Assembly (NCBI GenBank): GCA_002773615.1
Contig: PFAP01000011.1
Span: 8,307-72,306, forward strand
DNA from: Candidatus Falkowbacteria bacterium CG10_big_fil_rev_8_21_14_0_10_39_11
Lineage (GTDB): Bacteria; Patescibacteriota; Patescibacteriia; UBA11705
Length of the DNA stretch: 64,000 nt
Direction: 5' to 3'
Shown here: positions 17,085 through 37,156 of the stretch, piece after piece
Layout of the letters: every line of letters starts with the position of its first letter
How positions within the stretch are numbered: position 1 is the first letter of the stretch
Program-made: the position numbers and the translations under genes
The notes under the pieces: model-generated
Told to the model about the DNA's origin: nothing
The model's database searches: none
Seen by the model: only the letters and a program-made list of their open reading frames with translations

Positions 17085-17162
17085 ATTTCAATAAATCAAT
17101 AATTAAACCTCCTCGTTCACGCCACAATATATAAAACATGTATCTTATAAAACTAAAATAAT

Positions 17163-18440: not shown

Positions 18441-18516
18441 TTATATATAAGTTCAACACTTTTATAAACAACTTTGAACACATAATTAACTCACACTAAT
18501 TATATCTCAAAGTTTA

Positions 18517-18873: not shown

Positions 18874-18879
18874 ATATTA

Positions 18880-19305
18880 TTAATTAATTTGATCTAATAT
18901 TTTCTTTTCCAACGCTTCCATTTCTTCCGCCTCAGAATTTTTTATATGATCATATCCGAGCAAATGCAATAATCCGTGAATCACCAAAATTATCACCTCC
19001 TTTTGTTCGCCGATGTTCTTTTCCTTTGCCTGTCGTTTGGCTTGATTAACCGCAACAAAAATATCCCCCAAATATACAACCCGACCATCAACTTCACCGT
19101 CAACAAACGACAAAACATCAGTCACTTTATTTTTCTTTCGATACTTTTTATTTAGCTCCTGAATCATTTTATCACTGACAAATACTACCGAGGCTTCATT
19201 TCTATTTTTCAACTTTAACCTTTTATTTATTATATTTGCTGTTTTTTCAATCAACCGTCGAGGAACTATAAATCGAACTTTTTTTTCAATATTTACATTT
19301 ATCAT
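18880..19305 (-). CDS. ybeY: rRNA maturation endoribonuclease YbeY
   Basis: Zinc-binding HGLLHLLGYDH motif. Confidence 0.9.
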   Translation of the reverse strand: MINVNIEKKVRFIVPRRLIEKTANIINKRLKLKNRNEASVVFVSDKMIQELNKKYRKKNKVTDVLSFVDGEVDGRVVYLGDIFVAVNQAKRQAKEKNIGEQKEVIILVIHGLLHLLGYDHIKNSEAEEMEALEKKILDQIN

Positions 19306-19308
19306 AAA

Positions 19309-20247
19309 TTATTCCTGGCCAGTGAATACAAAGCTTTGCACCAAAAGCTCAAACAAATGCGGGTAGCTGGCTTTTTCTTTCAATCCGATATCATAATCAA
19401 TCACATAAATATATTCACCCCGAGCAAAATACACGGTAAATTCATCTGGACTTCGTACTCCTTTCATATTGTTGTGATTCTCAAATTCGACTATATTTGC
19501 CTCCGCTTCATCAATTTGAACACTATACCATTCAGCCAACGTCAATTGAGCAGTATTTTCTAATACCAAAACACTTACATTTTCATTCATGGGAGAAGAA
19601 AAGACAATTTCAGAATTTTTCGGATCCACGGATCGAGCAAACCACCCCTTTGGATAAAATAAATCATAATCAAAAGTTGGATTGACATAAGTCGAGACCA
19701 GCCCGGAAAACTCCAATCTCGCCGGATCACTACCGATTGGATTATACAAATTCTCCAATTCCACACCATCAAGATAACTATCTTGATCACTATCGGGTCT
19801 CTGATAATCAGTTTCTAATAAAAATTCTTCCGCATCCGTTAACCCATCATCATCCACATCAACATCAAACATTTCACTCAATTTTATTGGTTCAATTTTT
19901 GCCGGATCAAATTCCTGAGATGGCACGACGACCGGTTCAGGCTCTGGTTCAGGCTCAACCACAACCGGTTCCGGTTCCACTACTTTCACTATCACCTCTG
20001 GTTCAGGCGCTGGTTTAAAATAAGTCAAATATCCGATATACGACAACAAACTAACCGTTATAAATAAGGCAAAAATAACCACCATCGGCAAAGCTCGACT
20101 TTTTTTTCTTACTATTTTTGTTTTTGTTATTATCTTTTCTCGAACCACCTCTCGTGGTTGATCCGGTCGGACACCGTGATACTCTTCCGGCATAACAAAA
20201 ACCTTATCATAATCAGCCGTCACTTTGTTGTCTTTATCCTCTGCCAT
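19309..20247 (-). CDS. Membrane-anchored protein with (V/E/P) repeat linker and TSP3-like acidic Ca-binding motifs
   Basis: TM helix, VEPEPVVVEPEPEPEPVVVP, DVDVDDDGLTDAEE and DSDQDSYLDGVE. Confidence 0.5.
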   Translation of the reverse strand: MAEDKDNKVTADYDKVFVMPEEYHGVRPDQPREVVREKIITKTKIVRKKSRALPMVVIFALFITVSLLSYIGYLTYFKPAPEPEVIVKVVEPEPVVVEPEPEPEPVVVPSQEFDPAKIEPIKLSEMFDVDVDDDGLTDAEEFLLETDYQRPDSDQDSYLDGVELENLYNPIGSDPARLEFSGLVSTYVNPTFDYDLFYPKGWFARSVDPKNSEIVFSSPMNENVSVLVLENTAQLTLAEWYSVQIDEAEANIVEFENHNNMKGVRSPDEFTVYFARGEYIYVIDYDIGLKEKASYPHLFELLVQSFVFTGQE

Positions 20248-20306
20248 ATTGACTTAAAACTTATTTCTTTTACTTGGAACTATTGCAATCATCTACTTTA
20301 TTTCCC

Positions 20307-21002
20307 TTATAAATTCAATAACTTACCAGGGCCATTGGGATCATAACCATTTTTAACTTCATCACCATCGAGATATGTATCATTATCAGAATCACGATTC
20401 AATGGATCTGTATTATACACGCGCACCTCTTGAAAATCATCCAACCCATCTGAATCAGTGTCTGCTTTCAATGGATTTGTATTATACACAGCTTCTTCTC
20501 CATCCATCAAACCATCACCATCACTATCAATACTTTGATCTCCCAAAAGCTCTTGCGGATTCGATGAAGGTTCTGTAATGCTATTAGAGGGGTTTGATTC
20601 AATATCCTCTTTTTTTAGTAATCCATCCTCGGCACCCTCATTAGACAGCCCAAAGTTATCGATCACTTCCGTTGTATCACCAACAGAAGTATCAACTGAA
20701 TTAAAGCTATCACTATTATCCATAACCACTGGCCTCGCGTCTCGTCCAGTATACCAAAGTATTCCAAATACTACACCAACAATTACCACAATCGCCACCA
20801 CAAACAACAACACAATCTTGAGCACATTACCACCGCTTTTAACAGGCATCATAGCTGGCATAACCGCTGACTGCCCATCAGGCACCGGTTGTGGTTGTGG
20901 ACTTATCGGTTTTTCAGTTGCCATTGGCTTTTTTTGCTCTTCAGGCATTTGAGACTTCATTGATTTACTTTCTCCCTCTTGATATTTTGGATCATCAAAC
21001 AT
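20307..21002 (-). CDS. Membrane-anchored protein with four thrombospondin-type-3-like repeats
   Basis: DSDGDGLMDGEE, DTDSDGLDDFQE, DSDNDTYLDGDE; TM helix IVLLFVVAIVVIVGVVFGILWY. Confidence 0.55.
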   Translation of the reverse strand: MFDDPKYQEGESKSMKSQMPEEQKKPMATEKPISPQPQPVPDGQSAVMPAMMPVKSGGNVLKIVLLFVVAIVVIVGVVFGILWYTGRDARPVVMDNSDSFNSVDTSVGDTTEVIDNFGLSNEGAEDGLLKKEDIESNPSNSITEPSSNPQELLGDQSIDSDGDGLMDGEEAVYNTNPLKADTDSDGLDDFQEVRVYNTDPLNRDSDNDTYLDGDEVKNGYDPNGPGKLLNL

Positions 21003-21013
21003 AAGTTTATATA

Positions 21014-24000
21014 TTATTGAATTTCAAAATCCGTACTTGGTTTATTTCTAATTGAATAATAATTAAAGGTCTCAGCCTCTGTCCTATAAGAAATTCTAGA
21101 TCGCTTAAAGTCCCGGTTAAGATAATCATACAAATAACTATACAAATCAATCGGTGAAGATGTTGGAATCTGTATATCAACAATCAGACTATCAGAATTA
21201 TAACACGTATTTGGATCACTACCTCTAGCACAAACTGAACACAATTGATTGCCATTATCTTCAAAACATTGATGAGCTGGGATCAAACACTTCTTACCAT
21301 TATCTCCACAGGCCTCTCCGGTGAATGAGCTATTGGAACTTGGTTCATAACGAGCAATCTTATTGATCGGATCAACCGGTAATCTTGTCCCCAAATCATT
21401 GGCTAGGGTTGACTGCCAACTGGGCCAGGTAGAAGATGCAACATTCCGAATATACGAACCACTTTCAACGGTCGGTAAAGTCGTGTAACGATCATAGTAC
21501 GCCTGTAAAGATCTCTTTATATCCGTAATATCATTTATTCTCTGAATATCCCTTCTGATTGCAAATTGTACATCAGAATCTGTCACATTAATATTAAACA
21601 TCATCGAATCAATCATCTGAGCAAACATATCAATCGTACGACTATTGGCACCCAAATTATAGCCCAAAACAAAGATATAATTCCGCATCTCGCCACCAGT
21701 CAAATTACCAGCCGAGATATATACCGTATTTCCATCCTTAATCCCCTTATAACATACTTCTTGCCCAAATTTTGTATCAAGGCCACAATACACATTCAAA
21801 TCAGAACTGGATTGTCCAGCTTGAGGCACCTGATTTTTATACCATTCACGAACAGACAAATTATCAGGATTATCATAAATTCGCAGTGAAATCACATCAT
21901 CAACAAAGTCATTTGTATTCACCTCATTCACAATATCATCTGATCTGATCATCAAATATTGTTTTTGTAATGTGTCAACATCAGCTCCCAACTGTGACTC
22001 TACTACCCGAAGTAGTGGTAAATCATCCATTTTATTATTTACTTGTCCATTATCACGACAATATCGCAAATGAATATTTCGACCATCATTTCCATCATCC
22101 CACCCAATACTGGCACTATCCGCTGGCACTCTCCAGGGATTTTCACAAACATATGCACTGACTTGGCCTGATCCGACTAAAGTCGCTCCAATTTCACCAA
22201 AATAATCATCATCTATAATTGCTGCTTCAGCTGAAATTTCCGTATTTCCATTTTTATTATTAGCCATAGCCGCATCCCAAGAACCTGGAAGCTCTGTAAT
22301 ATCAACAATATCCCTATCTCCACTTTCCCAACTTGACCAATCCCAATCATACCGGCCAGCAAAAGGCTGAATTATTGTATTGCCCGACTTGGCCAGATGT
22401 GCAACTTCCCAAACCTCATCCCGCTCAGAAACTTGTTTCATCGCTGGAGAAATACCAACAGAATCAAAATGGCAATAATCTGATCCAACATTAAACCTGA
22501 AATTTTGATCTGGAATCAACAATTGACAATTATTTTCAATATTTTTAAGTCGGATCTCATAATGAGCAACCTTAAGAACGTCATTGGTTGTTATTTCAAT
22601 TTGACTAACATTTCTACCTCCCACATCCAGTACTCTTGATGTAATACTATAATTATCTGACTCTTCGAGACACCATTCAGCCGCCCGAGCGTCACGTCCG
22701 AATAATTTATTTAAATAATTCCAAATTTTCATCCCAACCTGAACTGGAGCACTACCACAACTATCAGCCTGATATCGCAATTCAATCAATTGATTCAAAT
22801 TTACTCCCGGTTCATGAAGCTGCTCCATCAATAAATCATACTGAACCACGATCACCGCATTCGGACATGTTTGAGATCCATCTTCACTGGTCATATCTAT
22901 CAAAGAAGGACTAATCAACTCTGCTCTTGCCGGATTGTTCGGATCACAAGATGGTGGTGGCGGTCCACCCAAACCAGAATAAACGTATGTAAGCAAACTA
23001 TCTTCAGACAAACTCTCTCCCACATCACCACTTTCTTCTAAATATGAAACCGTATTTTCCAACGTACCACGAATATTGACCGTTTGTCTGGTCGCACCAT
23101 CTGGCAAATAACCCAAAACCGTCACCAATGAATATGGTGCCCCATAAGACTCAAAACCGCCCCCAGACTGATCCAATTCACAAACCGGATCTTCGCCTGG
23201 CTCCACTTGTCCATTGGCACAAAAGGCAGCATTAGCCACGTTTGAGCCTCCATTCAAGCAACCATTGGTACACCAATCCGGAATTCTACAAACACAACTA
23301 TCCGTTCCGAATTCACAGACCTGTCCTTCATTATCAGTACAAACCGCTTCACACTCTTCAGTATAATTATTATAAGTTTCTAATTGTCCATTACCACAAC
23401 AATTTTCCTGATTATCTTCATTACAACCATCAAAATTTTTAAGTACACATTTATTTGAACAAAATTGGTCTTCATATGATTGGCAAACACAATTTTGATC
23501 TCCTGGCTGACAAGAGGCAAAAGAAATATTACCGTCAGAATTACGTTGCAAACTACCGTCCGCCGCTCGCACTGGAACTCGACAATTAACCGCCACCGGT
23601 TCACACTCTTCACCATTTTCGACCTGTCCATTACCACAAATCGATCCTATATATTCCGAACTTCCTTTATATAAACAATTATTATCTAGTCCGAACTGAC
23701 GATTTATTGCCGCTGAACCAAAATCATCATCTTCACCCAACTCCACTTTTCCATTACCACATTCAAAACCGGCTGAATTTGATCCTTCATTCAAACATTG
23801 TTTACTGCAACCATCTTGATTATTTCCATTACCATCATCACAATCTTCGCCCGGATCGACAATCTTATTACCACAACAAGCAATTTCATTGCCGGCAAAG
23901 CAAATCTCTGTCCCCGCTCTGAGACATTGATCAGTACACGCCGCGCCACCATCACACTCTTCACCAGATTCAACAACATTATTGCCACAAACGGCCTGAT

Positions 24001-27000
24001 AACGAACAGAACCTTCACTTAGACAATTAGACGTACAAGAAACGGCTCGCTGTGGAGAGTATAATGTCTTTAACATTGCAATCAATTTATTATCTCGCTC
24101 CGCCCTAGCGTCAACCCCGACAAAATTTTGCGAATTCACATCCGTATAATATTGTACTTCACCCGTTGTCTCTTCCCAATCCCAATCATACTGTCTGGCA
24201 CTGAGGCGTTGACCTCCAGAACTACAAAGATCCGGTTCAGAATACGGCACAGCACTATAAAGTATCTGCTCACCAGCTACCGTCGACAAATATTCTCCCG
24301 GACTAACCGTCACTCGATCAGGCCGACAAAAACCTCCATCTTCTCGAGTTTTGAAGACAAAACTAAACGAATCAAAGGTCGATGCGCTGTTAACATTTCG
24401 ATCAGTCAAAACACAACTTTGACAATTATCCGGGAAAGTACAGCTACAACCATCATCTCCATATTCACAACTCTGACGCTCTACCAAACTGCAAACATCT
24501 TTACAAACCAAATCCTTTTCGCTTGGACATTCAGCGCCTGTCGAAGCCAAAGGCACACAGGTACAAGCCGGAGCACTTTCCTTGCATTGAGTTTCTGTTC
24601 CAGCACAATAAGTCAATTTAATACACTCTCCTTTATCTGGATCCGCATCAAAACAGGTTACATCTGGAACAAATTGAAACTTACCAGATTCTCGACACGT
24701 ACAATCAGGTCCACTTTCTGTACAAGATTTTTGAGGGTCTTCTTCACAGGATCTTTGTGGTTGACAATCACAGCCAGCGTTATTATCTGTACAATATTCA
24801 GTAGTATTTTCTTGACAAACTTTTGGTTCAACACAAGTACAATCCAGAGAGTCAGCCGTACATTTTTGAGTTACATCTTCCAAGCAATATGAAGCACACT
24901 GCGGAGAATCACACTCTCTCGGTTCTCCACACTGACATGATGAAGACAATATATTTGGTTTATTTTTATTATCATTAAAATAATCATTACACACTTCGAG
25001 TGCAGAAACCCCTACACTACCAACGAAATCCACCTTCCCGGCTTTTGAACAACTTTCAACCTCACATTGCTCTTGCAATTGAGCCGACCCTAAATAAGTA
25101 TCCAAATTACCATCACCACAACAACCGGTAACGCCATCTTTACAAGCTGTAAAACCAACCAATCGACAATCATTGGAACAAAATTTGTTATTAGCCAGAG
25201 AACAGACACAATTATCCTCGCCTGAAATACATGTTTCGTTTGTTTTTTCATTCAAACATATCGCTTCGCATTGCTCTCCAGCATCAGATTCAATCACACC
25301 ATTACCACAAGTCCCAATTTGTGATCGAGTATTAAAATTCAAGCTGGTCAATTCTTTTGCACTGACATTTGTTACATCACCACGAATAACCAATCGATAA
25401 TATTTGGCCGGATCCAACACAGGATTAGGGTAAATACGCAATCGATTACAGACTTCACCATAATCAGCCACCATAGATACACCGGTTGTTGAGTCACAAT
25501 CGATTTCTCCGGGCTGGAAGTTTGCCAACTTATTTTCTTTCCCCGCAATCGACAAGCAATCACGACTTTCACACTCATACAAGCCAACAGATCCTGGATT
25601 ATTCTTCAAATAATCAGCGGGAATATAACTATTAAACATAGCCCCAAGCTCAGCGTTTACACAAGCGCCTTCACAATCCGGCCAATAATCAATTACTTTG
25701 GGGTCTGCCAATGAGATCGACAATCTAGCCTCATCCTGAAATGATTGAGCCCCAACCAAACCAGAAACTTGAATTTCTCCATCATCTCCCGGCGGTGTTT
25801 CAATCACCTCAGCATCTGGATTAACAACAAAATAGGCTGTATCTTTTCTAGATCCAGACACAAACAATCGATTGATTCTATCACCATATCGAGCCACCAG
25901 CCAATTCCAATTTTCATCAGAAACATCTATAATTCCACAATTATTCGCCTGACCGGAGACCATATATTTTTCTTGATCAACCACACTATTCAAGACACCT
26001 TCACTTGGATTCACCACCACAGAATCAATTGTACAGTCTGTGGCCGCTGTTTTAAAATTCCAAACATAATCATTTAATAATTCTTGAACATCATCGCCAG
26101 GGTCAGGCGCATTTCGGACACCAGCTTTCACAATCACCCGATACCAGGTATTCGGTACCAGATCATAATTAAGTAAATTGACTTGAGTCACTACATTATT
26201 ATCATAAGTTGAAGTTAAAACTTCATTCAATAAAATCCGACCGCTTGCATCACGTCCAGTAGCCACAAAATTATAATCTGTAGTCAAACAGTTACTACTA
26301 TCACAAAGCTGCAAATTACATTCACTTCCAGACTCACTACAACGTCTGATTTCCACTCGATCACCATCAATAAACGACTCTGAATCCATTTCCATATTAA
26401 AAGTAAAGCTGGCCAACCCGTTTGGACAAGCCGTCTGAGTATTGTTACGTGGAGATGGTGATTCATCAAAACCGCCAAGACTACATTCTCGATTAATCAC
26501 TTTAGGAATTTTAGGAATATTACCAGTACTAAAATACCAACCGTACTCACACGTAGTTGCTTGAGCTTCACACAGTTCAGCCGCGCTACAATAAGAATTT
26601 TGACAACAAACCTCACCCGAGCCACAACTATCAACCGTACATCGGCCGACATTAAATTGAACCGGATTACTATCGATACCACCTTGTTCAATCACCAACT
26701 CGCCACTTCTAGCATCCGGCGGAACAGATACCCCAGAAATTTGCGTACTGGTCCATTCAGCAGATTGTAAATTAAATCCCTCAACTATTGATGGCACACC
26801 AGGCGCAGCCGAAGCAAATTTGACCTTACCGGGTGTATTGCCAAATCCAACACCCTGAATAGTAATACTCGTCCCCGGAGGTCCATTGTCTGGAGTTATT
26901 GAACAAATACCAGGAGTCAATGCAAGATTATTATCAACTGAATAGGGTACCGAAACACTACCCTCGCTGTTTGCAATTTCTAAATCATAAGACCCTGTAA

Positions 27001-29080
27001 CCAAATCTGGAATGGTTACTTGAATACTGGTATTTGACCAATTATTAGCACAAGAAGTTAAAGCCGGAGTCCGAACGTTATCTCGAATAAATGTCACCGT
27101 ACCACTAGCACCAAAATTACTACCCTTAATCGTAATAATTTGTCCCTTAGGCGCAGTTTGCGGCAAAACTGACTGAATCACAATCGAACTATCACTTTCC
27201 CCGACCACAAAATTCACTGGATTGCTATAAAAATCATCCCGACCAACTTGAACGGTTTTGTTTCCTGACGATATAAACGGCACTTGAACTTCACGTATCA
27301 CATCATCTGACCATATTCCAGTCAGCAATGCATCACCATTAAAGTAAATACTACCATCTGCTCCAAAATGTCTTCCAGTCAAAAGAAGACGATCTCCGGG
27401 AGCTCCATTATTTTCTCGAGTTTCTTCATTCACCACCGAACACAAAGCGATTCTATTATTTCCACTTTCAGTAATCACCAAATCATTCTTCCAACCGGGT
27501 GCATTTGGATCAGCCGTATTGTGCCAATTACCTCTATTATTAAAAATTTGTATTGGACCAGTAGCAACATTTGGTACAGACACCACCACCTGTCGATCAC
27601 TCCAACTATCACGACCACAAACCGGAGCCGCTTCAACCCCATTGATTAAAACTTTTGCTTCTTGAGCAAAAACCCCAAAGTTTTTTCCATAAATAGTGAT
27701 AAAACCACTCGTCGGTGATTCAGCCGGCACTACATTGGTAATCAAAGGATATGGCCACAACGAACAGACAGACGAACACTGCTCAACTCCATCAACCGTT
27801 GAACAGTTACTCGGAGTACAAGTATAAGTACAATCATCCCCCGTACATTCAGAACAATTATCAACCTCACACTCAGGCAAAGAACAATCAAACTCACCAC
27901 CATCATTAAAACAACTATTGGAAGCCACCAAATATCGTCCAGCTGCGGTTGATTCATTATTACTAACATCACTCACCTTCACGGTTCCAGTGTGCCAACC
28001 CAAATCAAAACCGATAGTGGATGCATTCAAAACTGAACTATATGATAATGGATTTTCATCTTCAAAAACCACCTGCTGACACAAAACCCCTTGTCCGGTT
28101 TGAGCTGTCGGACAAAGTTGCAAGCTAGCCAAACCACTGGCGTCGGCCGCTGTTATCGGAAAATCCTCTTGGGCTCCAACTCGAACTTGCTGTGGGCTGG
28201 GAATAACCGATACTGTTGGCGCCAACAAATCACAACTATTTGTAGTCGTAAATTCTACTTGTCGACAATAACCCTGCAACCTATTTGGACATGCCACCAC
28301 ACTACCATTTTGATCTTGTAATTCTAATACTTTAATTCGATATGTTTTTTCTCCCTGAAAACAACTTGTCGCTTCACATCCAACTGGACATTCACCATTT
28401 GAAACAAAAGTCACCTTTCTATCACTTAAATCATAAGAACCCACCACCTCAACTTCTGACTCTACGTCACCGTCTTTTACAACCTCATACACTTTAATGT
28501 TATCTTTGGCATTTTGATATTCATTAGTCGGTAATGGCGTTCGACCATTCGGGAACGTAACCTGGACCACTGCATTAACCGGAGTATTAGCTCCACGAGG
28601 AGCAATACCAACGGAAAACCCTGTCACACCACCACCGCCACCGCCACCATCACCACCACCACCACCGCCACCCTCGGTGGTTGAAACCACTCCAGTCGCT
28701 TCACTAAGTCGATTAATTACATAACTGGTAATAGAAAATGCTGACATAATAATCACCATGCCAATAATACCATTGATAATCCATTTTTTAGCCTTCTCAA
28801 CTGACGTTTCAGCTCCACCACTAGTCATGTACAAAAATCCACCGTACAACACAATAGCCAAAGAAACCACTCCTAAAAATCCCAAAAATATTCTCAAAAT
28901 TCTACCGATAATTATTCTCGGATCCTCATTACCCAAAACGGTCGCCGACCCAACAGCCTCAAGCCCCACCCCAACATCATTTGACTGTTGAGCATGCAAT
29001 AATTCTGGAAGGACAAAAAGACCACCCATCACAATGAAGAGCACAATCAACACTCCAATTATTTTATTTTTATGTTTCAT
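21014..29080 (-). CDS. Giant (2688 aa) cell-surface protein: N-terminal T4SS-pilin-like (VirB2/TrbC-like) membrane domain, Gly-rich linker, IPT/TIG-like repeats, multiple Myxococcus-type Cys-rich repeats
   Basis: N-terminus LGNEDPRIIIGRILRIFLGFLGVVSLAIVLYGGFLYMTSGGAETSVEKAKKWIINGIIGMVIIMSAFSITSYVINRL; GGGGGGGDGGGGGGG linker. IPT/TIG-like strands (ITIKGSNFGASGTVTF, ITIQGVGFGNTPGKVKF). CGNGxxExGEECDxG repeats (CGNGVIESDAGEQCE, CGNGQVENGEECE, CGNKIVDPGEDCDDGNGNNQDGCSKQC). Confidence 0.7.
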   Translation of the reverse strand: MKHKNKIIGVLIVLFIVMGGLFVLPELLHAQQSNDVGVGLEAVGSATVLGNEDPRIIIGRILRIFLGFLGVVSLAIVLYGGFLYMTSGGAETSVEKAKKWIINGIIGMVIIMSAFSITSYVINRLSEATGVVSTTEGGGGGGGDGGGGGGGVTGFSVGIAPRGANTPVNAVVQVTFPNGRTPLPTNEYQNAKDNIKVYEVVKDGDVESEVEVVGSYDLSDRKVTFVSNGECPVGCEATSCFQGEKTYRIKVLELQDQNGSVVACPNRLQGYCRQVEFTTTNSCDLLAPTVSVIPSPQQVRVGAQEDFPITAADASGLASLQLCPTAQTGQGVLCQQVVFEDENPLSYSSVLNASTIGFDLGWHTGTVKVSDVSNNESTAAGRYLVASNSCFNDGGEFDCSLPECEVDNCSECTGDDCTYTCTPSNCSTVDGVEQCSSVCSLWPYPLITNVVPAESPTSGFITIYGKNFGVFAQEAKVLINGVEAAPVCGRDSWSDRQVVVSVPNVATGPIQIFNNRGNWHNTADPNAPGWKNDLVITESGNNRIALCSVVNEETRENNGAPGDRLLLTGRHFGADGSIYFNGDALLTGIWSDDVIREVQVPFISSGNKTVQVGRDDFYSNPVNFVVGESDSSIVIQSVLPQTAPKGQIITIKGSNFGASGTVTFIRDNVRTPALTSCANNWSNTSIQVTIPDLVTGSYDLEIANSEGSVSVPYSVDNNLALTPGICSITPDNGPPGTSITIQGVGFGNTPGKVKFASAAPGVPSIVEGFNLQSAEWTSTQISGVSVPPDARSGELVIEQGGIDSNPVQFNVGRCTVDSCGSGEVCCQNSYCSAAELCEAQATTCEYGWYFSTGNIPKIPKVINRECSLGGFDESPSPRNNTQTACPNGLASFTFNMEMDSESFIDGDRVEIRRCSESGSECNLQLCDSSNCLTTDYNFVATGRDASGRILLNEVLTSTYDNNVVTQVNLLNYDLVPNTWYRVIVKAGVRNAPDPGDDVQELLNDYVWNFKTAATDCTIDSVVVNPSEGVLNSVVDQEKYMVSGQANNCGIIDVSDENWNWLVARYGDRINRLFVSGSRKDTAYFVVNPDAEVIETPPGDDGEIQVSGLVGAQSFQDEARLSISLADPKVIDYWPDCEGACVNAELGAMFNSYIPADYLKNNPGSVGLYECESRDCLSIAGKENKLANFQPGEIDCDSTTGVSMVADYGEVCNRLRIYPNPVLDPAKYYRLVIRGDVTNVSAKELTSLNFNTRSQIGTCGNGVIESDAGEQCEAICLNEKTNETCISGEDNCVCSLANNKFCSNDCRLVGFTACKDGVTGCCGDGNLDTYLGSAQLQEQCEVESCSKAGKVDFVGSVGVSALEVCNDYFNDNKNKPNILSSSCQCGEPRECDSPQCASYCLEDVTQKCTADSLDCTCVEPKVCQENTTEYCTDNNAGCDCQPQRSCEEDPQKSCTESGPDCTCRESGKFQFVPDVTCFDADPDKGECIKLTYCAGTETQCKESAPACTCVPLASTGAECPSEKDLVCKDVCSLVERQSCEYGDDGCSCTFPDNCQSCVLTDRNVNSASTFDSFSFVFKTREDGGFCRPDRVTVSPGEYLSTVAGEQILYSAVPYSEPDLCSSGGQRLSARQYDWDWEETTGEVQYYTDVNSQNFVGVDARAERDNKLIAMLKTLYSPQRAVSCTSNCLSEGSVRYQAVCGNNVVESGEECDGGAACTDQCLRAGTEICFAGNEIACCGNKIVDPGEDCDDGNGNNQDGCSKQCLNEGSNSAGFECGNGKVELGEDDDFGSAAINRQFGLDNNCLYKGSSEYIGSICGNGQVENGEECEPVAVNCRVPVRAADGSLQRNSDGNISFASCQPGDQNCVCQSYEDQFCSNKCVLKNFDGCNEDNQENCCGNGQLETYNNYTEECEAVCTDNEGQVCEFGTDSCVCRIPDWCTNGCLNGGSNVANAAFCANGQVEPGEDPVCELDQSGGGFESYGAPYSLVTVLGYLPDGATRQTVNIRGTLENTVSYLEESGDVGESLSEDSLLTYVYSGLGGPPPPSCDPNNPARAELISPSLIDMTSEDGSQTCPNAVIVVQYDLLMEQLHEPGVNLNQLIELRYQADSCGSAPVQVGMKIWNYLNKLFGRDARAAEWCLEESDNYSITSRVLDVGGRNVSQIEITTNDVLKVAHYEIRLKNIENNCQLLIPDQNFRFNVGSDYCHFDSVGISPAMKQVSERDEVWEVAHLAKSGNTIIQPFAGRYDWDWSSWESGDRDIVDITELPGSWDAAMANNKNGNTEISAEAAIIDDDYFGEIGATLVGSGQVSAYVCENPWRVPADSASIGWDDGNDGRNIHLRYCRDNGQVNNKMDDLPLLRVVESQLGADVDTLQKQYLMIRSDDIVNEVNTNDFVDDVISLRIYDNPDNLSVREWYKNQVPQAGQSSSDLNVYCGLDTKFGQEVCYKGIKDGNTVYISAGNLTGGEMRNYIFVLGYNLGANSRTIDMFAQMIDSMMFNINVTDSDVQFAIRRDIQRINDITDIKRSLQAYYDRYTTLPTVESGSYIRNVASSTWPSWQSTLANDLGTRLPVDPINKIARYEPSSNSSFTGEACGDNGKKCLIPAHQCFEDNGNQLCSVCARGSDPNTCYNSDSLIVDIQIPTSSPIDLYSYLYDYLNRDFKRSRISYRTEAETFNYYSIRNKPSTDFEIQ

Positions 29081-29114
29081 TTTTATATTTTAACTCAACT
29101 CTTGAGACTATAAT

Positions 29115-31223
29115 CTAATAAGGACACATTGCTCCTGTTTGAACCTGCATACCACCAACTCCAGCATCATCTACCGTACCACAACAAGCTCGACCAGGCA
29201 CCAATGGATCACAAGCCGGTCCCTTACAAGGATTAAAGCAATTCCCCTGCATATCCTGGACTCCTGAAGTAATTTTAGGAAAGAAAAATGGCACATCAAG
29301 CGGATTTTTTGCCAACGAAAATGGTCCATGATTTATCATCACTTTTCTATCATTTGTCAAACAAAACTTCGAACCATCAGGTGATGTTCCTGGGTCACAA
29401 AACAAACTACCCGTGTACCAACCACTCCACATATCCGAGACTATTATCATATTAGAATTCGTTGTAGTTGCTGGATCTATCGCTTCACTATAAGTCGCCG
29501 ACACCACACTATCCGGCCTCACACCATCACTTTTATCAGCTGCATTCGCTGGTGTGACGGCTGTAATATTTGGCGGAATCAAATCCAATTGAGCTGAAGT
29601 CAAAAACGTCCAATCAAAACTATCGATTGCCTGAGTTTCTGTTTGCCCATTTCCGCGACCAATACGTCCGTTGGTATCCAAACCATTCAAAGCTGAATCC
29701 ACAATACCACCAACCGGGAATCGAACTGAAGTTGGACCAGCCGGTCCGTTTGGATTGGCCGCATCATAATTCACCAAGTTACTTTTTGGCACAGACCGCA
29801 CCAAGGTTTTTATCTTGCTATTCGCTGGCAAACAAGTAACAATATCACCACAAGAATTAAACAAATCAGCTCCGGTACCACAGTTACCATTGGCCTTGAA
29901 GATTAATGATCTATACTGGTTTATTCCAGCCACCACATCACCCATGATTACCGAGCCATCAGCATCATTAGTCACCAAGAACTCGGCATTACCATAATCA
30001 CCAGAATTAGTTGATATCATTTTCAAAAATATCGGTGGAATCACCGCCTCACTAAAATCAACTCGAATACGACTATTTCTCCAATGAGTTTCAGCATTAG
30101 CCGCCCCCACCTCGAATTCAACTGGTTGCCCACTCGAATCAAGCGTCACCGGATAAACACCAGTCACAAATGGCGGAGTAGTATCGATCACCGTATTTGT
30201 AGTAAAATACCAGGGATACTTCGGAGATTGTTGGCCGGTAAATACACCTGTATTTGTTTGATACTTTCTAATATTATTTGTTAACAATGAAAAATAAGTC
30301 ACATCTTCAGCAATTCCGCCCAAATGTTCTGTAGTACTATTCCCATATGGATTAACTACAATGGTTTTGAAATCAGGCGTGATATATACCTCTCCAGGAA
30401 CAAAATCAAACGGGGCAGCAGGCTCATCACCTCGCCATTCATTACAAACAGATTTATTACCCCTTTGAGCTGGATCATAACTCTGCGGAGTCACCACACC
30501 TTCAGGATAAATAGATTCACAAGCTTCATATATTTTGATCGATTCAGTATCCAAATCTCCAGTACATAAACAATCACTATCCGGTTTTACATCCGAACAA
30601 TCACCGCCAGCCGCATCTTGACAAATAAAGTTACCATTAGCCGCGATCACGCTTGACGGAACAATCGGTTCTTTAAAAGTCACCATAATCACAGTATTCC
30701 GTGGGACAGTCGAAGCAATGGCCGGATAATGGTCCTGAATTACTCGACCCAAAATACCAGAACTCAAACCTGGTGAAGTATATTCAGACTGAGAACCTCC
30801 ACCCGTTCCGCCACCAATAATAGCTTGTAATCGACTGATAATAAAACTGGTAATGGCAAAAGCTGACATCATAATCACCAAACCAATCGTAGCGTTGATA
30901 ATTGTTTTTTTTGCTTTAGTCGTCTTTGATTCATCACCACCGCTGGTCATGTACAAAAATCCAGCGTAAATCATTAGCGAGACAAAAATCGCACCAACAA
31001 ACCCAAAGAATATCCGGATTATTCTGGCAATAATAATTCTAGGGTCTTCATTTCCCAAGCCAGTAGCACCGCCGACAGCGTCAGTACCGTTAATTACTCC
31101 CGGAGCTTGCGCCGCAACCTGAAAAACACTCAGCAGCAAAATCGCAGTTAGTATAAAGGCAAAAAAAATCGATAAATAAGCTACTCGATTTGTTCGTTTT
31201 ATATATTTAAAATTCAAAAACAT
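29115..31223 (-). CDS. 702-aa surface protein with the same N-terminal T4SS-pilin-like domain followed by a Gly-rich linker and a large extracellular region
   Basis: LGNEDPRIIIARIIRIFFGFVGAIFVSLMIYAGFLYMTSGGDESKTTKAKKTIINATIGLVIMMSAFAITSFIISRL aligns motif-for-motif with the giant protein N-terminus. Confidence 0.65.
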   Translation of the reverse strand: MFLNFKYIKRTNRVAYLSIFFAFILTAILLLSVFQVAAQAPGVINGTDAVGGATGLGNEDPRIIIARIIRIFFGFVGAIFVSLMIYAGFLYMTSGGDESKTTKAKKTIINATIGLVIMMSAFAITSFIISRLQAIIGGGTGGGSQSEYTSPGLSSGILGRVIQDHYPAIASTVPRNTVIMVTFKEPIVPSSVIAANGNFICQDAAGGDCSDVKPDSDCLCTGDLDTESIKIYEACESIYPEGVVTPQSYDPAQRGNKSVCNEWRGDEPAAPFDFVPGEVYITPDFKTIVVNPYGNSTTEHLGGIAEDVTYFSLLTNNIRKYQTNTGVFTGQQSPKYPWYFTTNTVIDTTPPFVTGVYPVTLDSSGQPVEFEVGAANAETHWRNSRIRVDFSEAVIPPIFLKMISTNSGDYGNAEFLVTNDADGSVIMGDVVAGINQYRSLIFKANGNCGTGADLFNSCGDIVTCLPANSKIKTLVRSVPKSNLVNYDAANPNGPAGPTSVRFPVGGIVDSALNGLDTNGRIGRGNGQTETQAIDSFDWTFLTSAQLDLIPPNITAVTPANAADKSDGVRPDSVVSATYSEAIDPATTTNSNMIIVSDMWSGWYTGSLFCDPGTSPDGSKFCLTNDRKVMINHGPFSLAKNPLDVPFFFPKITSGVQDMQGNCFNPCKGPACDPLVPGRACCGTVDDAGVGGMQVQTGAMCPY

Positions 31224-31237
31224 AATTTTTTATTTTA

Positions 31238-31687
31238 CTAAATCAACTTTTTTACTGCCACCTGTATTACCTGACCATCAGCTTGACCACTCATTTCCTT
31301 CATTACTCGCCCCATCACTTGACCAAAATTCCCCTTCTCATCTTCAGCCAAAGAATCAACAATCTCCCGCACCTTTACCTCAACCTGTTCTACTGACAAC
31401 TGTGCTGGCACAAAATTTTCCAGCACTACATTTTCGTATTCATCAATTTCTCTTAAATCATCTCGACCAGCTTGGGTATAACTCTCGATGGCTTCACGTC
31501 GTTTTTTTATTTCAGATCTAATCACAGATACAATCTCTTGTTCATTCAAAGACTGGCCCAGATCAATTTCTTTGTTTTTCAAACTTGATCTCAACCCTCT
31601 CAACACATTCAATTTTGATTTATTTTTTTCTTTTAAAGCCTTTATAAAATCAGCTTCAATTCTTTCTTGAAGTTTCATATATTTCAA
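31238..31687 (-). CDS. GatB/YqeY-domain protein
   Basis: 149 aa; ADFIKALKEKNK ... VSVIRSEIKKRREAIE ... GNFGQVMGRVMKEMSGQADGQ is typical of the YqeY family. Confidence 0.75.
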   Translation of the reverse strand: MKYMKLQERIEADFIKALKEKNKSKLNVLRGLRSSLKNKEIDLGQSLNEQEIVSVIRSEIKKRREAIESYTQAGRDDLREIDEYENVVLENFVPAQLSVEQVEVKVREIVDSLAEDEKGNFGQVMGRVMKEMSGQADGQVIQVAVKKLI

Positions 31688-31806
31688 TTAAATTATAACA
31701 TTTTATTTCCTTACCAACAAATGTATTTGTTGATTATTTACACACAGACAAGGCTTTTTCCAGCACAACAAAAAAACCACCCCCAGTGAGGATGGTTTTC
31801 TTATTA

Positions 31807-32049
31807 TTATCGTCGATACTTTTTTCTTTCATCTTCTTTCAATCGGCCTGATTTTTTCAAATATTCCAATCTATCCTTGGTCTTCATTCCATACAATTTT
31901 GAAGCCTTGATCATATTTCGACTTCGATCTGATACATGAAATCGAATTTTTTTAAACTGTAATATTTTACCGCTCTGAATCAATCGTTTGTTAAAGCGTC
32001 GTACAAACGATTCAAAAGTTTCGCCTTTTTTACGTTTTGCTTCTACCAT
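31807..32049 (-). CDS. rpsU: 30S ribosomal protein S21
   Basis: ETFESFVRRFNKRLIQSGKILQFKKIRFHVSDRSRNMIKAS parallels the bS21 pattern ([32 protein letters not shown]). Confidence 0.75.
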   Translation of the reverse strand: MVEAKRKKGETFESFVRRFNKRLIQSGKILQFKKIRFHVSDRSRNMIKASKLYGMKTKDRLEYLKKSGRLKEDERKKYRR

Positions 32050-32082
32050 ATATTGGTTTCCACATCCTTTCTATATAATTTA

Positions 32083-33399
32083 TCATTTCTTATAAATAAT
32101 TTTTTTCACTTCACCAATTACTTTTTTGATATTAACCACTTCTTGAATGCCACTTTCAACATCTCGCATCAAGATAGTACCATCGATTGTTTCCTTTTGG
32201 CCCAATATCAAAATCACTTTTGCTCCCATCTTTGTTGCCGTATCAAGCTGACTCTTTAAACCATCTTTGGAAAAATTTGCCACCACCCGGAAATCTTCCT
32301 TTCGCAATTCTTCCACAAACTCCATGGCTCTTCGCTTTGCTTGCTCACTGAGTTGCGCCAGATACACGTGAGGACTTTTCATTCTAGGGATTTCGACCTT
32401 CTTACTCTTAATCTCAGAGATTACCTTTTCCACCAACAACGAGATTGTACAAGCGGGCATTTCCGGACCACCAAGCATCTCTGACAAATAATTGATTCTA
32501 CCACCGGTAGCCAAAAGGACATCATCACCATCCTCTGTTCGGTTATAAATAGAATAAATCGTTCCATTATAATATCCAAATTCATGAACCATTGAATTAT
32601 CCATTTCATACTCAACCTTAACTTCATCCATTGCTTCCAAAAATTTAAATAAATGACTATGCTCTGACTCAGACAAATAATCAACAATTTGCGGCGCATC
32701 CTCTATCTGCTTGGTACACTTCTGATTTGCACACGCCAAAAATTTAAACGGATCACGAGTTGCCTGTCCACGACATTCAGTACAAATCGCTGAACGCTTA
32801 CTTTTAATATATCCTGTTAAAGCTTTAGCATATTCTATTCTACCGGTCAAGCCCCCAAGGCTATTGACTCGAACATACGGATTAAGCCCCAAAGCTACAA
32901 ATGTTTGATAAAGCATCACCACCAATTCCACATCAGCGGCTGGAGACTCTACGCCATACACATGATAACCCATTTGATACATTTGTCGATGCTTGCTTTC
33001 ATAAAAATTACCCTGGGTTAATATAGAACCACCAAACCAAAGCTTTATTGGAATCGTATTATTATACAAACTATGACTAATAAAAGACCTAGTGACCGCT
33101 GGGATATAATCAGCTCGAAGCACCATTTTTTCATTTTTATCTGTAAATGAAATTAAGTCTTTTTTCACAAAATCACTATTTTTCCCGATAGTATGAGCAT
33201 ACAAGTCGTACTTTTCCATCAAGGGTGTATCGACCCATTGAAAATTAAAATCAATCGCGACACGAGTCAAACTATCAAGCAGTGTTCTCCAATATTTATT
33301 ATCAGATGGCAGAACATCCTTCATCCCCTTTATTAAAGGTGGAGTTTTTATCTTTTTTATTTGCTCTGTGGGTTCATCCACTTTTTTTCGTCTAGGCAT
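32083..33399 (-). CDS. hisS: Histidine--tRNA ligase (uses a TGA stop)
   Basis: IKGMKDVLP (HisRS GMxDxLP), RADYIPAVTRSF (motif 2), C-terminal anticodon-binding domain KVILILGQKETIDGTILMRDVESG. Confidence 0.85.
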   Translation of the reverse strand: MPRRKKVDEPTEQIKKIKTPPLIKGMKDVLPSDNKYWRTLLDSLTRVAIDFNFQWVDTPLMEKYDLYAHTIGKNSDFVKKDLISFTDKNEKMVLRADYIPAVTRSFISHSLYNNTIPIKLWFGGSILTQGNFYESKHRQMYQMGYHVYGVESPAADVELVVMLYQTFVALGLNPYVRVNSLGGLTGRIEYAKALTGYIKSKRSAICTECRGQATRDPFKFLACANQKCTKQIEDAPQIVDYLSESEHSHLFKFLEAMDEVKVEYEMDNSMVHEFGYYNGTIYSIYNRTEDGDDVLLATGGRINYLSEMLGGPEMPACTISLLVEKVISEIKSKKVEIPRMKSPHVYLAQLSEQAKRRAMEFVEELRKEDFRVVANFSKDGLKSQLDTATKMGAKVILILGQKETIDGTILMRDVESGIQEVVNIKKVIGEVKKIIYKK

Positions 33400-33421
33400 A
33401 ACCTTATTATTTTATCCAAAA

Positions 33422-34162: not shown

Positions 34163-34230
34163 TAATCCAGTCTATAATATCCTTAATGAAGCTGAGCCTG
34201 CAACTAACTTAGTTTTATTTTAGTTTTATT

Positions 34231-35694: not shown

Positions 35695-35696
35695 AT

Positions 35697-37076: not shown

Positions 37077-37156
37077 AAAAATCTAGCGTGTAACGATTAA
37101 AAATTCATGGTCAAACCGACAGCAAACTATACGCTATAAGCTAAACGCTAAACCCT

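What the first reader, a model, noticed from the sequence alone, without database searches (positions are those of the whole stretch)
21014..31223. Two tandem giant surface proteins (2688 aa and 702 aa) share an N-terminal T4SS-pilin-like (VirB2/TrbC-like) membrane domain
Seen in the sequence: the first ~130 residues of the two proteins align motif-for-motif (LGNEDPRIII-RI-RIF-GF-G ... Y-GFLYMTSGG-E ... KAKK-IIN ... IG-VI-MSAF-ITS-I-RL). Each consists of a signal/TM segment plus a two-helix hydrophobic hairpin, followed by a Gly-rich linker (GGGGGGGDGGGGGGG in the giant one). The giant protein then carries IPT/TIG-like beta repeats and at least seven CGNGxxExGEECDDGN-type Cys-rich repeats. I recognise these as the Myxococcus Cys-rich repeat (DUF4215/TIGR02232-like). 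To my recollection the shared N-domain matches the small 'T4SS pilin' family described mostly from CPR and Gram-positive conjugative systems. Here it is used as a membrane/pilus anchor for enormous adhesin-like ectodomains. That would fit a host-attachment apparatus of an episymbiotic CPR cell rather than a conjugation pilus. The two genes sit head-to-tail, followed by two TSP3-repeat proteins. They share a minus-strand block with ybeY-dgkA-ftsA-ftsZ, suggesting constitutive expression.
Basis: partly seen in the sequence, partly recalled or inferred. Interest (0 to 1): 0.8.

Follow-up and report, generated by a model that had tools for sequence, protein, structure and literature searches.

The report
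Pilin-anchored giant surface protein pair
Two neighbouring genes of an ultra-small groundwater bacterium each start with a complete conjugation-type (VirB2-like) pilin module and continue into a long adhesin-like outer part, and the same pair sits in the same housekeeping operon across a whole bacterial class, so it is probably a core cell-surface contact device that the papers I could search do not describe.

Summary
ORFs 29115..31223(-) (702 aa) and 21014..29080(-) (2688 aa) share only their first ~130 residues (50% identity, E 2e-28). That segment scores above Pfam's cutoff for PF18895 T4SS_pilin, and 123-143 bits against an HMM built from free CPR pilins. It consists of a signal peptide plus a confidently modelled two-helix hairpin.

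The source is a Candidatus Falkowbacteria genome (GTDB class ABY1). The pair is not a one-off:
- 58 of 78 species-representative loci carry lepB-hisS-rpsU-yqeY-[~700 aa fusion]-[2000-4600 aa fusion]-TSP3 genes-ybeY-dgkA-ftsA-ftsZ.
- The giant's conserved C-proximal module defines about 1400 clusters at 50% identity. Every apparently full-length member examined has the N-terminal pilin.
- The fused hairpins keep the conservation pattern of free pilins.
- The two hairpins of one genome co-vary (58.6% against 48.0% identity, p<=1e-4).

No T4SS gene lies in the window, but Table S1 of PMC12102498 records VirB4 in four genomes that carry the pair.

Best reading: the pilin hairpin anchors adhesin-type ectodomains in the membrane, with the C-terminus facing out. 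Incorporation into a pilus is possible but unshown. I rate it a new variant of a known kind.

The parts
29115..31223 (-). 'Mid' pilin fusion, 702 aa (NCBI PIR94260.1, locus tag COT97_02090): N-terminal prepilin module, short Gly/Ser linker and an Ig-like (Big_5 / SbsA-like) ectodomain
   Evidence: ORF and translation. PF18895 34.9 bits and Big_5 38.2 bits. AF2 pLDDT 86.9. Foldseek hits to Ig-like domains of L,D-transpeptidases and of the S-layer proteins SbsC and Sap. 96 homologues, mostly 540-1080 aa, nearly all with PF18895 and/or Big_5.
30816..31223 (-). Prepilin module of the 702-aa protein (residues 1-136): signal peptide (helix 13-31), helix 61-92, short loop, helix 98-136
   Evidence: The free-pilin HMM matches ORF residues 18-136 at 123.5 bits.
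21014..29080 (-). Giant pilin fusion, 2688 aa (COT97_02085)
   Evidence: 72 homologues of 1539-4649 aa, all with one N-terminal pilin domain by the custom HMM.
28691..29080 (-). Prepilin module of the giant (residues 1-130): signal peptide 3-31 and hydrophobic helices 54-87 and 99-123, joined by the basic loop ..SGGAETSVEKAKK..
   Evidence: PF18895 28.2 bits. Free-pilin HMM 142.8 bits. Hydropathy.
28628..28675 (-). Gly-rich linker (residues ~136-151, GGGGGGGDGGGGGGG)
   Evidence: Read directly from the translation.
26651..27748 (-). IPT/TIG repeat region (approximately residues 445-810)
   Evidence: PF01833 E 2.1e-26, 4 stretches, best stretch 445-517. The outer limit of the region is approximate.
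23336..25309 (-). Cys-rich region with seven CGNG/CGDG-type acidic repeats (residues 1258-1915). Its first part, ~1250-1550, is the least conserved stretch of the protein.
   Evidence: Regex and Cys density. TIGR02232 26.2 bits at 1736-1766. Coverage by homologues drops to 5-8 of 71 over residues 1251-1550.
21281..22780 (-). Conserved, unnamed module of the giant family (residues ~2101-2600): Ig-like domain, an alpha/beta domain resembling the PsbP/Mog1 fold, a long helix and the motif S-x-W-P-S-W ... L-P-x-D-P-x-N
20307..21002 (-). Single-pass membrane protein with TSP3 (calcium-binding type) repeats; travels with the pair
   Evidence: PF18884 47.3 bits. Sequence. Found downstream of the giant wherever the flank is visible.
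19309..20247 (-). Second single-pass membrane protein, with TSP3-like Asp motifs and a weak PsbP-like C-terminal part
   Evidence: Sequence. PsbP 20.6 bits, below the cutoff of 23.5. Relatives found downstream in 5 loci.
31238..34162 (-). Conserved upstream housekeeping genes on the same strand: signal peptidase I (33422..34162), hisS (32083..33399), an 80-aa basic protein I read as ribosomal protein S21 (31807..32049; assigned from its sequence, no profile run), and yqeY (31238..31687)
   Evidence: Pfam. Sequence. The same order in 49-52 of 58 pair loci.
15846..19305 (-). Conserved downstream housekeeping genes: ybeY, dgkA, ftsA, ftsZ
   Evidence: Pfam. The same order in L005, L006 and JGI 3300072015.
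49638..50231 (+). Third pilin gene of the window: 197 aa, ends right after the hairpin, with a ~70-aa Cys-rich insert between signal peptide and hairpin
   Evidence: PF18895 38.4 bits and TrbC 23.8 bits. Alignment. HMM. Its neighbours are RelA/SpoT and SPFH genes, not T4SS genes.

Best explanation
The two genes encode a matched pair of cell-surface proteins.

Build. Each is a complete VirB2/TrbC-type prepilin of the patescibacterial PF18895 family, made of a signal peptide and a two-helix hydrophobic hairpin. The C-terminus is extended by a flexible Gly-rich linker and a disulfide-rich ectodomain of adhesin type. In the 702-aa protein that ectodomain is a string of Ig-like (Big_5) domains. In the giant it comprises TIG repeats, Cys-rich acidic repeats and a conserved Ig + PsbP-like module.

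Mechanism, shown in part and inferred in part. The signal peptide is removed after the conserved ..A|Q site. Helix 1 spans the membrane from outside to inside, the basic loop (KAKK) stays in the cytoplasm, and helix 2 returns to the outside. Everything after helix 2 is therefore exported by Sec and displayed on the cell surface, tethered by the hairpin.

The hairpin is more than a passive anchor. It keeps the constraint pattern of free pilins. The two hairpins of one genome co-vary. I therefore infer that they associate with each other in the membrane, and possibly with the genome's free pilins or its T4SS.

The variable, adhesin-like outer parts would mediate contact with a partner cell or a surface. 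Placement inside the rpsU-yqeY ... ybeY-dgkA-ftsA-ftsZ block suggests constitutive expression as a core trait of class ABY1.
For: Shown:
- Domain identity: PF18895 above the gathering score; 123-143 bits against a free-pilin HMM.
- Helical hairpin modelled with high confidence, and three hydrophobic segments.
- All 168 homologues carry exactly one pilin domain, always at the extreme N-terminus.
- The consensus of free, mid and giant hairpins is nearly identical. Per-column conservation correlates at r 0.83-0.87.
- Same-genome mid/giant hairpin identity is 58.6%, against a permutation null of 48.0 +/- 0.6 (p<=1e-4). The own paralogue beats the orthologue in 80% of genome pairs.
- The ectodomains are Ig-like, cadherin-like or S-layer-like by fold. 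The giant has 139 Cys. Relatives carry VWA, Laminin_G_3, fn3, DUF4215 and Big domains.
- Synteny in 58 of 78 species-representative loci and three further contigs.
- No minus-strand terminator-like site in the intergenic gaps between yqeY and dgkA. The six gaps are 14, 34, 11, 59, 3 and 6 nt.

From the literature:
[quoted passage not shown] A C-terminal extension is therefore topologically outward both in the membrane and in a pilus.
- VirB4 is recorded in four genomes that carry the pair (Table S1 of PMC12102498).
Against: - No experiment exists on any member of this family.
- No T4SS gene lies in the 64-kb window.
- The PF18895 scores are only 2-8 bits above the cutoff. TrbC/VirB2 itself is below its cutoff. 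A profile of the domain finds no solved T4SS pilin.
- The hairpin fold alone could not be compared with VirB2 structures, because the fold searches on the whole model were dominated by the Ig-like domains.
- Co-variation of the two hairpins could result from gene conversion between adjacent genes, or from lineage-specific composition, rather than from physical contact.
- Co-variation with free pilins of the same genome is weak and rests on five genomes.
- 'Adhesin' is inferred from domain types only. No ligand-binding site was identified.
Confidence: 0.5

Rival explanations
1. True modular minor pilins. The hairpins are extracted from the membrane by the genome's T4SS and co-polymerised with free PF18895 pilins. 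The ectodomains then decorate the shaft or tip of a T4SS-type pilus, the counterpart of modular type IV pilins.
For: - The fused hairpin keeps the full conservation pattern of free pilins. It is 42-65% identical to them.
- The same genomes hold arrays of 5-9 free pilins, and four of them are recorded with VirB4.
- Decorated pilins form a graded series. There are N-terminal inserts such as the 197-aa protein, and C-terminal extensions of 65-290, 470-890 and 1750->3300 aa.
- Pilin termini face outward in F pili (PMC5018250).
- There is a precedent for modular pilins in type IV pili (PMC8179133).
Against: - No pilus has been demonstrated for any patescibacterial T4SS. Reviews call it a possibility (PMC12857230).
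- The pair is never next to T4SS genes in the loci examined. Instead it sits in a housekeeping operon.
- My own steric inference: a 2500-aa ectodomain on every subunit would not fit a filament, so at most sparse incorporation is plausible.
- Co-variation is strong between the two fusions but weak with free pilins.
Confidence: 0.25
2. A structural envelope component rather than an adhesin. The pair forms a membrane-anchored surface coat, S-layer-like or wall-spanning scaffold that every cell needs, which would explain its place beside the cell-division genes. The pilin hairpin is an ancient exapted anchor.
For: - Class-wide vertical inheritance inside a housekeeping and division gene block.
- Fold hits to the S-layer proteins SbsC, SbsB, Sap and EA1.
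- UniProt names the 702-aa protein 'SbsA Ig-like domain-containing protein'.
- The accompanying TSP3 membrane proteins may bind calcium, as many S-layers do. This last point is from general knowledge.
Against: - The S-layer hits are generic Ig-like matches with low TM-scores (0.08-0.16).
- The giant varies from ~1540 to >4600 aa with shuffled adhesin-type modules (VWA, LamG, fn3, TIG) and a poorly conserved Cys-rich middle. That is untypical of lattice-forming proteins.
- No SLH or other wall-binding domain was found.
Confidence: 0.2
3. The shared N-terminus is only a generic signal peptide plus hydrophobic or low-complexity sequence, or the long ORFs are assembly or gene-calling artefacts.
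For: PF18895 scores are close to the cutoff, and hydrophobic helices can give spurious profile hits.
Against: - 123-143 bits against a free-pilin HMM.
- Invariant polar and Gly positions are shared with free pilins.
- Identical proteins were recovered from four independent assemblies.
- The same architecture occurs in 58 species-representative genomes and in 112 of 136 further cluster representatives. The other 24 look N-terminally truncated.
Confidence: 0.01

Closest known systems
VirB2-like (PF18895/PF04956) pilins and pilin arrays of patescibacterial T4SS (Southlakia epibionticum ML1, Nanosynbacter lyticus TM7x; PMC10633639, PMC12102498)
   Same: The N-terminal 130 residues belong to the same family: signal peptide, two-helix hairpin and basic loop. 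The lineage is also Patescibacteria. Free arrays of 5-9 such pilins exist in the same genomes.
   Different: The described pilins are small (about 100-160 aa), lie in arrays and are often near virB4. Here the pilin module is the N-terminal ~5-20% of a 700-aa or 2000-4600-aa protein, and the genes sit in a housekeeping operon. That study reports that no adhesins such as PrgB were detected in its CPR dataset, and I found no mention of fused forms in the passages I read.
Modular type IV pilins, e.g. Streptococcus sanguinis PilB (vWA module) and PilC (PMC8179133, PMC9934059)
   Same: The same design logic: a pilin module with an adhesive module grafted onto the end that is exposed on the filament, in a monoderm bacterium.
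   Different: A different, unrelated pilin class. Type IV pilins have a class III signal peptide, prepilin peptidase processing and a single N-terminal helix. The grafted modules there are a few hundred residues, not thousands. Incorporation into filaments is shown there and not here.
Bartonella Trw T4SS with amplified variant TrwL (VirB2) and TrwJ (VirB5) genes used for host-cell adhesion (cited in PMC12102498)
   Same: A T4SS pilin system diverted from conjugation to adhesion, with multiple pilin paralogues.
   Different: Variation there comes from small paralogous pilins, not from fusion to large ectodomains. It is a diderm system encoded within the T4SS locus.
Surface adhesins of Gram-positive conjugation systems (PrgB type, LPXTG-anchored)
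   Same: A large surface adhesin that, in a monoderm, takes the contact role played by pili in diderms.
   Different: PrgB is sortase-anchored to the wall through a C-terminal LPXTG. Here the anchor is an N-terminal pilin hairpin, and the giant's C-terminus (..STDFEIQ) has no LPXTG or hydrophobic tail.
Giant putative adhesins noted in Patescibacterium danicum, class ABY1 (PMC11809585)
   Same: The same bacterial class, very long surface proteins, and a proposed role in adhesion or host interaction.
   Different: Those 4939-6025 aa proteins were described through FhaB, fn3 and DUF2341 domains and reported to have no full-length homologues. No pilin module, conserved partner gene or synteny was reported. 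Whether they belong to this family was not tested.

Membership tests
Pfam PF18895 T4SS_pilin | Profile score at or above the gathering score (26.6 bits) | tested here: met
   Giant 28.2 bits, 702-aa protein 34.9 bits, 197-aa protein 38.4 bits. An HMM of 120 PF18895-annotated free pilins gives 142.8, 123.5 and 93.1 bits.
Pfam PF18895 T4SS_pilin | Signal peptide followed by two hydrophobic helices joined by a short polar or basic loop | tested here: met
   Hydropathy segments. AF2 helices 13-31, 61-92 and 98-136 with high pLDDT. Loop ..SGG-x6-KAKK...
VirB2/TrbC pilins (Pfam PF04956) of type IV secretion systems | Profile score at or above the gathering score (27.9 bits) | tested here: not met
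   No TrbC hit at E<=1 for either fusion. The 197-aa pilin scores 23.8 bits. Some homologues carry precomputed PF04956 hits. The NCBIfam Mbov_0395 pilin-like family scores 20.4 and 32.4 bits, below its cutoff of 40.
VirB2/TrbC pilins of type IV secretion systems | Encoded with, or in a genome that has, the T4SS machinery (VirB4 and others) | tested here: inconclusive
   None in the 64-kb window, and none among ten of the larger ORFs flanking four free-pilin arrays. Table S1 of PMC12102498 lists VirB4 as present in four pair-bearing genomes. It also lists it in Falkowbacteria CG10_big_fil_rev_8_21_14_0_10_39_11, which I take to be the source genome from the 39% GC in its name; this is not proven.
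VirB2/TrbC pilins of type IV secretion systems | Polymerises with phospholipid into an extracellular filament | not testable with these tools
   Needs microscopy or biochemistry. No multimer modelling was available.
VirB2/TrbC pilins of type IV secretion systems | Detectable similarity to a solved T4SS pilin | tested here: not met
   A profile of 32 N-domains and free pilins against all PDB sequences gave best E 0.62, to unrelated proteins. A fold comparison of the hairpin alone could not be run.
IPT/TIG domain (PF01833) | Profile score above the cutoff | tested here: met
   92.2 bits against a cutoff of 20.9, in 4 stretches.
Myxococcal cysteine-rich acidic repeat (TIGR02232; related Pfam DUF4215) | Profile score above the cutoff; repeated CGNG..E.GE.CD units | tested here: met
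   26.2 bits against a cutoff of 20.8, with one stretch at 1736-1766. Seven motif starts by regex. PF13948 is precomputed in several homologues.
Type IV (class III signal peptide) pilins / T2SS pseudopilins | N-terminal prepilin peptidase site and a hydrophobic alpha1-N helix; GspG-like head domain | tested here: not met
   [not shown]
S-layer proteins of monoderm bacteria | Wall-anchoring domain (SLH, CWB2) and a lattice-forming domain | tested here: not met
   No SLH or CWB2 hit. Only generic Ig-like fold matches to SbsC, Sap and EA1, with TM 0.08-0.16.
Sortase-anchored (LPXTG) adhesins | C-terminal LPXTG, hydrophobic stretch and basic tail | tested here: not met
   The C-termini ..KPSTDFEIQ and ..TGAMCPY have no such signal.

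The most novel reading that the evidence does not exclude
ABY1 Patescibacteria would possess a class-wide surface organelle. In it, VirB2-type T4SS pilin modules, acting as a membrane platform or as an actual filament assembled by the resident T4SS, directly carry giant modular adhesins by gene fusion. These would be the first 'modular VirB2 pilins'. The two co-evolving hairpins would form its heteromeric base. The organelle would be the main means by which these uncultured ultra-small cells attach to their partners, and it is encoded next to the division genes because every daughter cell must be equipped with it.
Probability: 0.25. Interest if true: 0.85.

Novelty: new variant of a known kind. 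Interest (0 to 1): 0.68.

Why it matters
Patescibacteria make up a large share of bacterial diversity, and class ABY1 has no cultured member. How these cells attach to partners is unknown.

The one genetic study in the phylum found the T4SS and its pilin array to be essential for epibiotic growth, without knowing what the pilins do (PMC10633639). The phylum-wide T4SS survey reported finding no adhesins such as PrgB (PMC12102498).

A pilin module physically joined to adhesin-type ectodomains, conserved in one operon across the class, gives a concrete candidate for the missing contact apparatus. It also links the enigmatic pilins to cell-surface display.

It offers defined targets for cryo-ET, surface proteomics and antibody labelling in enrichments: two proteins, a conserved unnamed module, and the partner TSP3 proteins.

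For T4SS biology it would extend the 'modular pilin' principle from type IV pili to the unrelated VirB2 class.

Tried and rejected
1. Looked for T4SS or type IV pilus machinery in the window by Pfam scans of 43 ORFs. None was found; everything is housekeeping.

2. Looked for VirB4 next to free-pilin arrays of relatives. Ten of the larger flanking ORFs gave none; an SBP_bac_1 gene lies upstream in three loci.

3. Sequence link to solved T4SS pilins: none.

4. Fold search of the whole 702-aa model was dominated by Ig-like domains, so it says nothing about the hairpin.

6. Strain variation in the giant: the four recovered copies that overlap are identical, so there is no information.

7. Promoter and terminator consensus scans were uninformative, apart from the absence of terminator-like sites in the intergenic gaps.

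8. The search for related loci with the full-length alignments A3 and A4 failed for lack of a conserved stretch. A hairpin alignment worked. Its search pattern may bias the sample toward ABY1, so absence from other classes is not shown.

9. Co-variation between the fusions and the free pilins of the same genome was too weak, with too few genomes (n=5), to use.

10. Artefact or generic signal-peptide explanations were rejected.

Full report
**Observation**

The window holds two head-to-tail ORFs on the minus strand: 29115..31223 (702 aa) and 21014..29080 (2688 aa), separated by 34 nt. BLASTP between them gives a single significant segment, residues 1-125 of the giant against 8-132 of the shorter protein. 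It has 50% identity, no gaps and E 2e-28. All other segments have E>1. So the two proteins share only an N-terminal module.

Hydropathy finds three hydrophobic segments in each protein: 3-31, 54-87 and 99-123 in the giant, and 11-44, 61-94 and 106-133 in the 702-aa protein. AlphaFold2 of the 702-aa protein with a 71-sequence alignment (mean pLDDT 86.9, pTM 0.77) gives a signal-peptide helix 13-31. It also gives a hairpin of helices 61-92 and 98-136, with pLDDT mostly 74-93. A beta-rich ectodomain follows.

The Gly run, the TIG repeats (E 2e-26, 4 stretches), the myxococcal Cys-rich repeat (TIGR02232, 26.2 bits against 20.8) and seven CGNG/CGDG-type repeat starts are all present. The giant contains 139 cysteines, all outside the N-module.

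**What the shared module is**

All three pilin-like ORFs of the window exceed the PF18895 (T4SS_pilin) gathering score of 26.6 bits. The scores are 28.2 (giant), 34.9 (702 aa) and 38.4 (197-aa ORF 49638..50231). The 197-aa ORF also scores 23.8 bits on TrbC/VirB2, below that family's cutoff of 27.9.

A profile of the three hairpins retrieved 2411 proteins. The best 120 are all free pilins of 101-160 aa, 42-65% identical to the giant's hairpin. Nearly all are annotated PF18895, and some also PF04956. An HMM built from those 120 scores the window's two fusions at 142.8 and 123.5 bits. It finds no further pilin gene in the window beyond the 197-aa ORF.

Two limits apply. No solved T4SS pilin is detectable by sequence profile. 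The hairpin fold alone could not be compared with VirB2 structures.

**Source and surroundings**

Both proteins are identical to COT97_02090 and COT97_02085 of a Candidatus Falkowbacteria MAG from the CG10_big_fil_rev series. The same locus was recovered in four other assemblies. Falkowbacteria correspond to GTDB class ABY1 (PMC11809585; Table S1 of PMC12102498).

On the minus strand the gene order is:
- signal peptidase I, hisS, an 80-aa basic protein that I read as ribosomal protein S21 from its sequence (no profile run), and yqeY;
- the 702-aa fusion and the giant fusion;
- a TSP3-repeat membrane protein and a second membrane protein with TSP3-like motifs;
- ybeY, dgkA, ftsA and ftsZ.

The six gaps from yqeY to dgkA are 14, 34, 11, 59, 3 and 6 nt. 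No minus-strand terminator-like site lies in them. The rest of the 64 kb is housekeeping, with no VirB4, VirB6, VirD4 or type IV pilus ATPase.

**It is a family, not a curiosity**

Whole-protein searches found 96 relatives of the 702-aa protein. Most are 540-1080 aa, and nearly all carry PF18895 and/or Big_5. They also found 72 relatives of the giant, of 1539-4649 aa. Most of these combine PF18895 with mixtures of Big_5, TIG, Laminin_G_3, VWA, DUF4215, Big_7 and fn3. In all 168, the free-pilin HMM finds exactly one domain, always at the extreme N-terminus.

Three distant giants have the same neighbourhood as the window. They are a 1.34-Mb genome, a JGI contig and a Magasanikbacteria contig.

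A scan of one genome per GTDB species, using the hairpin pattern [LI]Y[GA]G[FY]LYM[TI], returned 78 loci:
- 58 contain the tandem pair. The mid protein has a C-terminal extension of about 470-890 aa, and the giant an extension of 1231 to more than 3330 aa (many run off the locus).
- In those 58, lepB, hisS, rpsU and yqeY lie upstream in 49-52 loci. TSP3, ybeY, dgkA and ftsA lie downstream wherever the flank reaches.
- 14 loci are arrays of 5-9 free pilins.
- Five genomes have both a pair and an array.

All named lineages (Falkow-, Magasanik-, Uhr-, Buchanan- and Kuenenbacteria, and GW2011_GWA2_40_23) are class ABY1 in Table S1 of PMC12102498. That table records VirB4 in four pair-bearing genomes. 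It also records VirB4 in the CG10 assembly whose name carries 39% GC. I take this to be the source genome, but that is not proven.

**The giant's conserved module**

Mapping the 71 relatives onto the giant shows four well-conserved regions: the pilin module, residues ~450-1200, ~1550-2000 and ~2200-2550. A poorly conserved Cys-rich stretch lies at ~1250-1550.

A profile of residues 2101-2688, searched against 1.84 billion representative proteins, found 1915 hits. Of these, 1405 have E<=1e-30, and nearly all are 1500-5400 aa. Among 136 new representatives, 112 have the N-terminal pilin domain. The remaining 24 look N-terminally truncated.

**Is the hairpin a passive anchor?**

Two results argue that it is not.

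First, the consensus sequences of free, mid and giant hairpins are almost the same (..GLG..D.R..IARIIR..LGFLG....V..LYGGFL[WY]MT[AS]GG.EEK...AKK....(A/G).IGL.IILSA[FY]AI.SF[VI]I..L..AT). Per-column conservation correlates at r 0.83-0.87 between the classes. One caveat: the free pilins compared are those most similar to the fusions.

Second, the two hairpins of one genome are more alike than expected. Their mean identity is 58.6%. Mid against giant from different genomes gives 47.9%, giant orthologues 51.4% and mid orthologues 47.8%. A permutation null is 48.0 +/- 0.6 (p<=1e-4). The own paralogue beats the orthologue in 80% of genome pairs.

Because the pair is syntenic across the class, this pattern means concerted evolution or co-evolution. 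It is compatible with physical association of the two hairpins. It is equally compatible with gene conversion between neighbours. Co-variation with the free pilins of the same genome is weak and rests on five genomes.

**Mechanism**

Shown: the module has a Sec-type signal peptide ending in a conserved A-Q, two membrane-length helices and a short loop followed by KAKK.

Inferred from the positive-inside rule and from what is known of VirB2/TraA: after signal-peptide removal the N-terminus is outside, the loop is cytoplasmic and the end of helix 2 is outside. The linker and ectodomain are therefore exported and tethered. [quoted passage not shown] A C-terminal extension therefore points outward whether the module stays in the membrane or enters a filament.

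The ectodomains are strings of Ig-like domains with adhesin-type modules, and they are rich in disulfides.

I therefore favour a pilin-anchored pair of surface fibrils used for contact with a partner cell or a surface. The pair is expressed with housekeeping genes, and the hairpins associate with each other (confidence about 0.5).

Rival readings:
- True incorporation into a T4SS pilus as sparse modular pilins, about 0.25. It is favoured by the preserved pilin constraints, the graded series of decorated pilins and the presence of VirB4. It is disfavoured by the lack of any demonstrated pilus, the lack of T4SS linkage and steric considerations.
- A structural coat or S-layer-like role, about 0.2. 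It is favoured by class-wide inheritance beside the ftsAZ genes. It is disfavoured by the size and module variability of the giant and by the absence of a wall-binding domain.
- Artefact or a generic signal peptide. This is excluded.

**Comparison with what is known**

Patescibacterial VirB2-like pilins and their arrays are described, and are essential in Southlakia epibionticum (PMC10633639, PMC12102498, PMC12857230). Those papers treat small pilins, and the survey states that no adhesins such as PrgB were detected.

Giant putative adhesins in ABY1 have been noted without any pilin link (PMC11809585).

Modular pilins carrying adhesive modules are established for type IV pili of Streptococcus sanguinis (PMC8179133), but that is an unrelated pilin class.

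Full-text searches combining VirB2, Patescibacteria and fusion, adhesin or Ig-like terms found no description of this architecture. The domain combination is visible in database annotations, and NCBI already names some of these long proteins 'pilin'. I therefore rate it a new variant of a known kind, with the caveat that the literature library is incomplete.

Noticed in passing
window 49638..50231 (+): A third PF18895 pilin (197 aa). It carries its extra domain, a ~70-aa Cys-rich insert, between the signal peptide and the hairpin, and it ends right after the hairpin. It sits between two RelA/SpoT genes and an SPFH gene, not near any T4SS gene. Similar N-terminally extended pilins occur in the arrays of relatives, and between rpsU and yqeY in three loci, two of them titled Uhrbacteria (L059, L069, L072).
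   Followed up: partly
L029 6859..8319, L082 5352..6830, L083 4994..7708: In three independent ABY1 genomes the free-pilin array has an extracellular solute-binding protein gene (SBP_bac_1) upstream on the same strand. No VirB4 was seen among the larger flanking ORFs that I scanned. This hints that the arrays have a conserved partner other than the T4SS locus.
   Followed up: partly
[not shown]
   Followed up: partly
[not shown]
   Followed up: partly
window 1..64000: GC skew is strongly and uniformly negative: -0.08 to -0.38 in every 2-kb bin, and mostly about -0.2 to -0.35. This holds on both sides of the change in gene orientation near 34 kb. It therefore looks replication-related rather than transcription-related, and it is unusually large. 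parA and parB lie at 53-55 kb, but no skew switch occurs in the window.
   Followed up: no
window 46522..48153 (+) and 48172..49635 (+): Two tandem RelA/SpoT-family genes (HD + RelA_SpoT + TGS) lie directly upstream of the 197-aa pilin. The first has a ~100-aa N-terminal extension.
   Followed up: no
window 1067..1894 (-): A further TSP3_bac-repeat protein (275 aa), far from the cassette. TSP3 membrane proteins seem to be a small paralogous family in this genome.
   Followed up: no
L010, L011, L013, L015 and about 30 further loci: Many contigs with the patescibacterial pair and its synteny carry the record title 'uncultured Gammaproteobacteria bacterium' (binchicken/SRP co-assembly MAGs). The titles look like placeholder or wrong taxonomy.
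   Followed up: no
L021 8804..9895, L041 11932..13095, L080 3838..6363: Variants of the cassette. Two genomes have a third, small pilin fusion (C-terminal extension 232-255 aa) between the mid and giant genes. One has two mid-type genes. The cassette therefore grows by local duplication of the pilin module.
   Followed up: no
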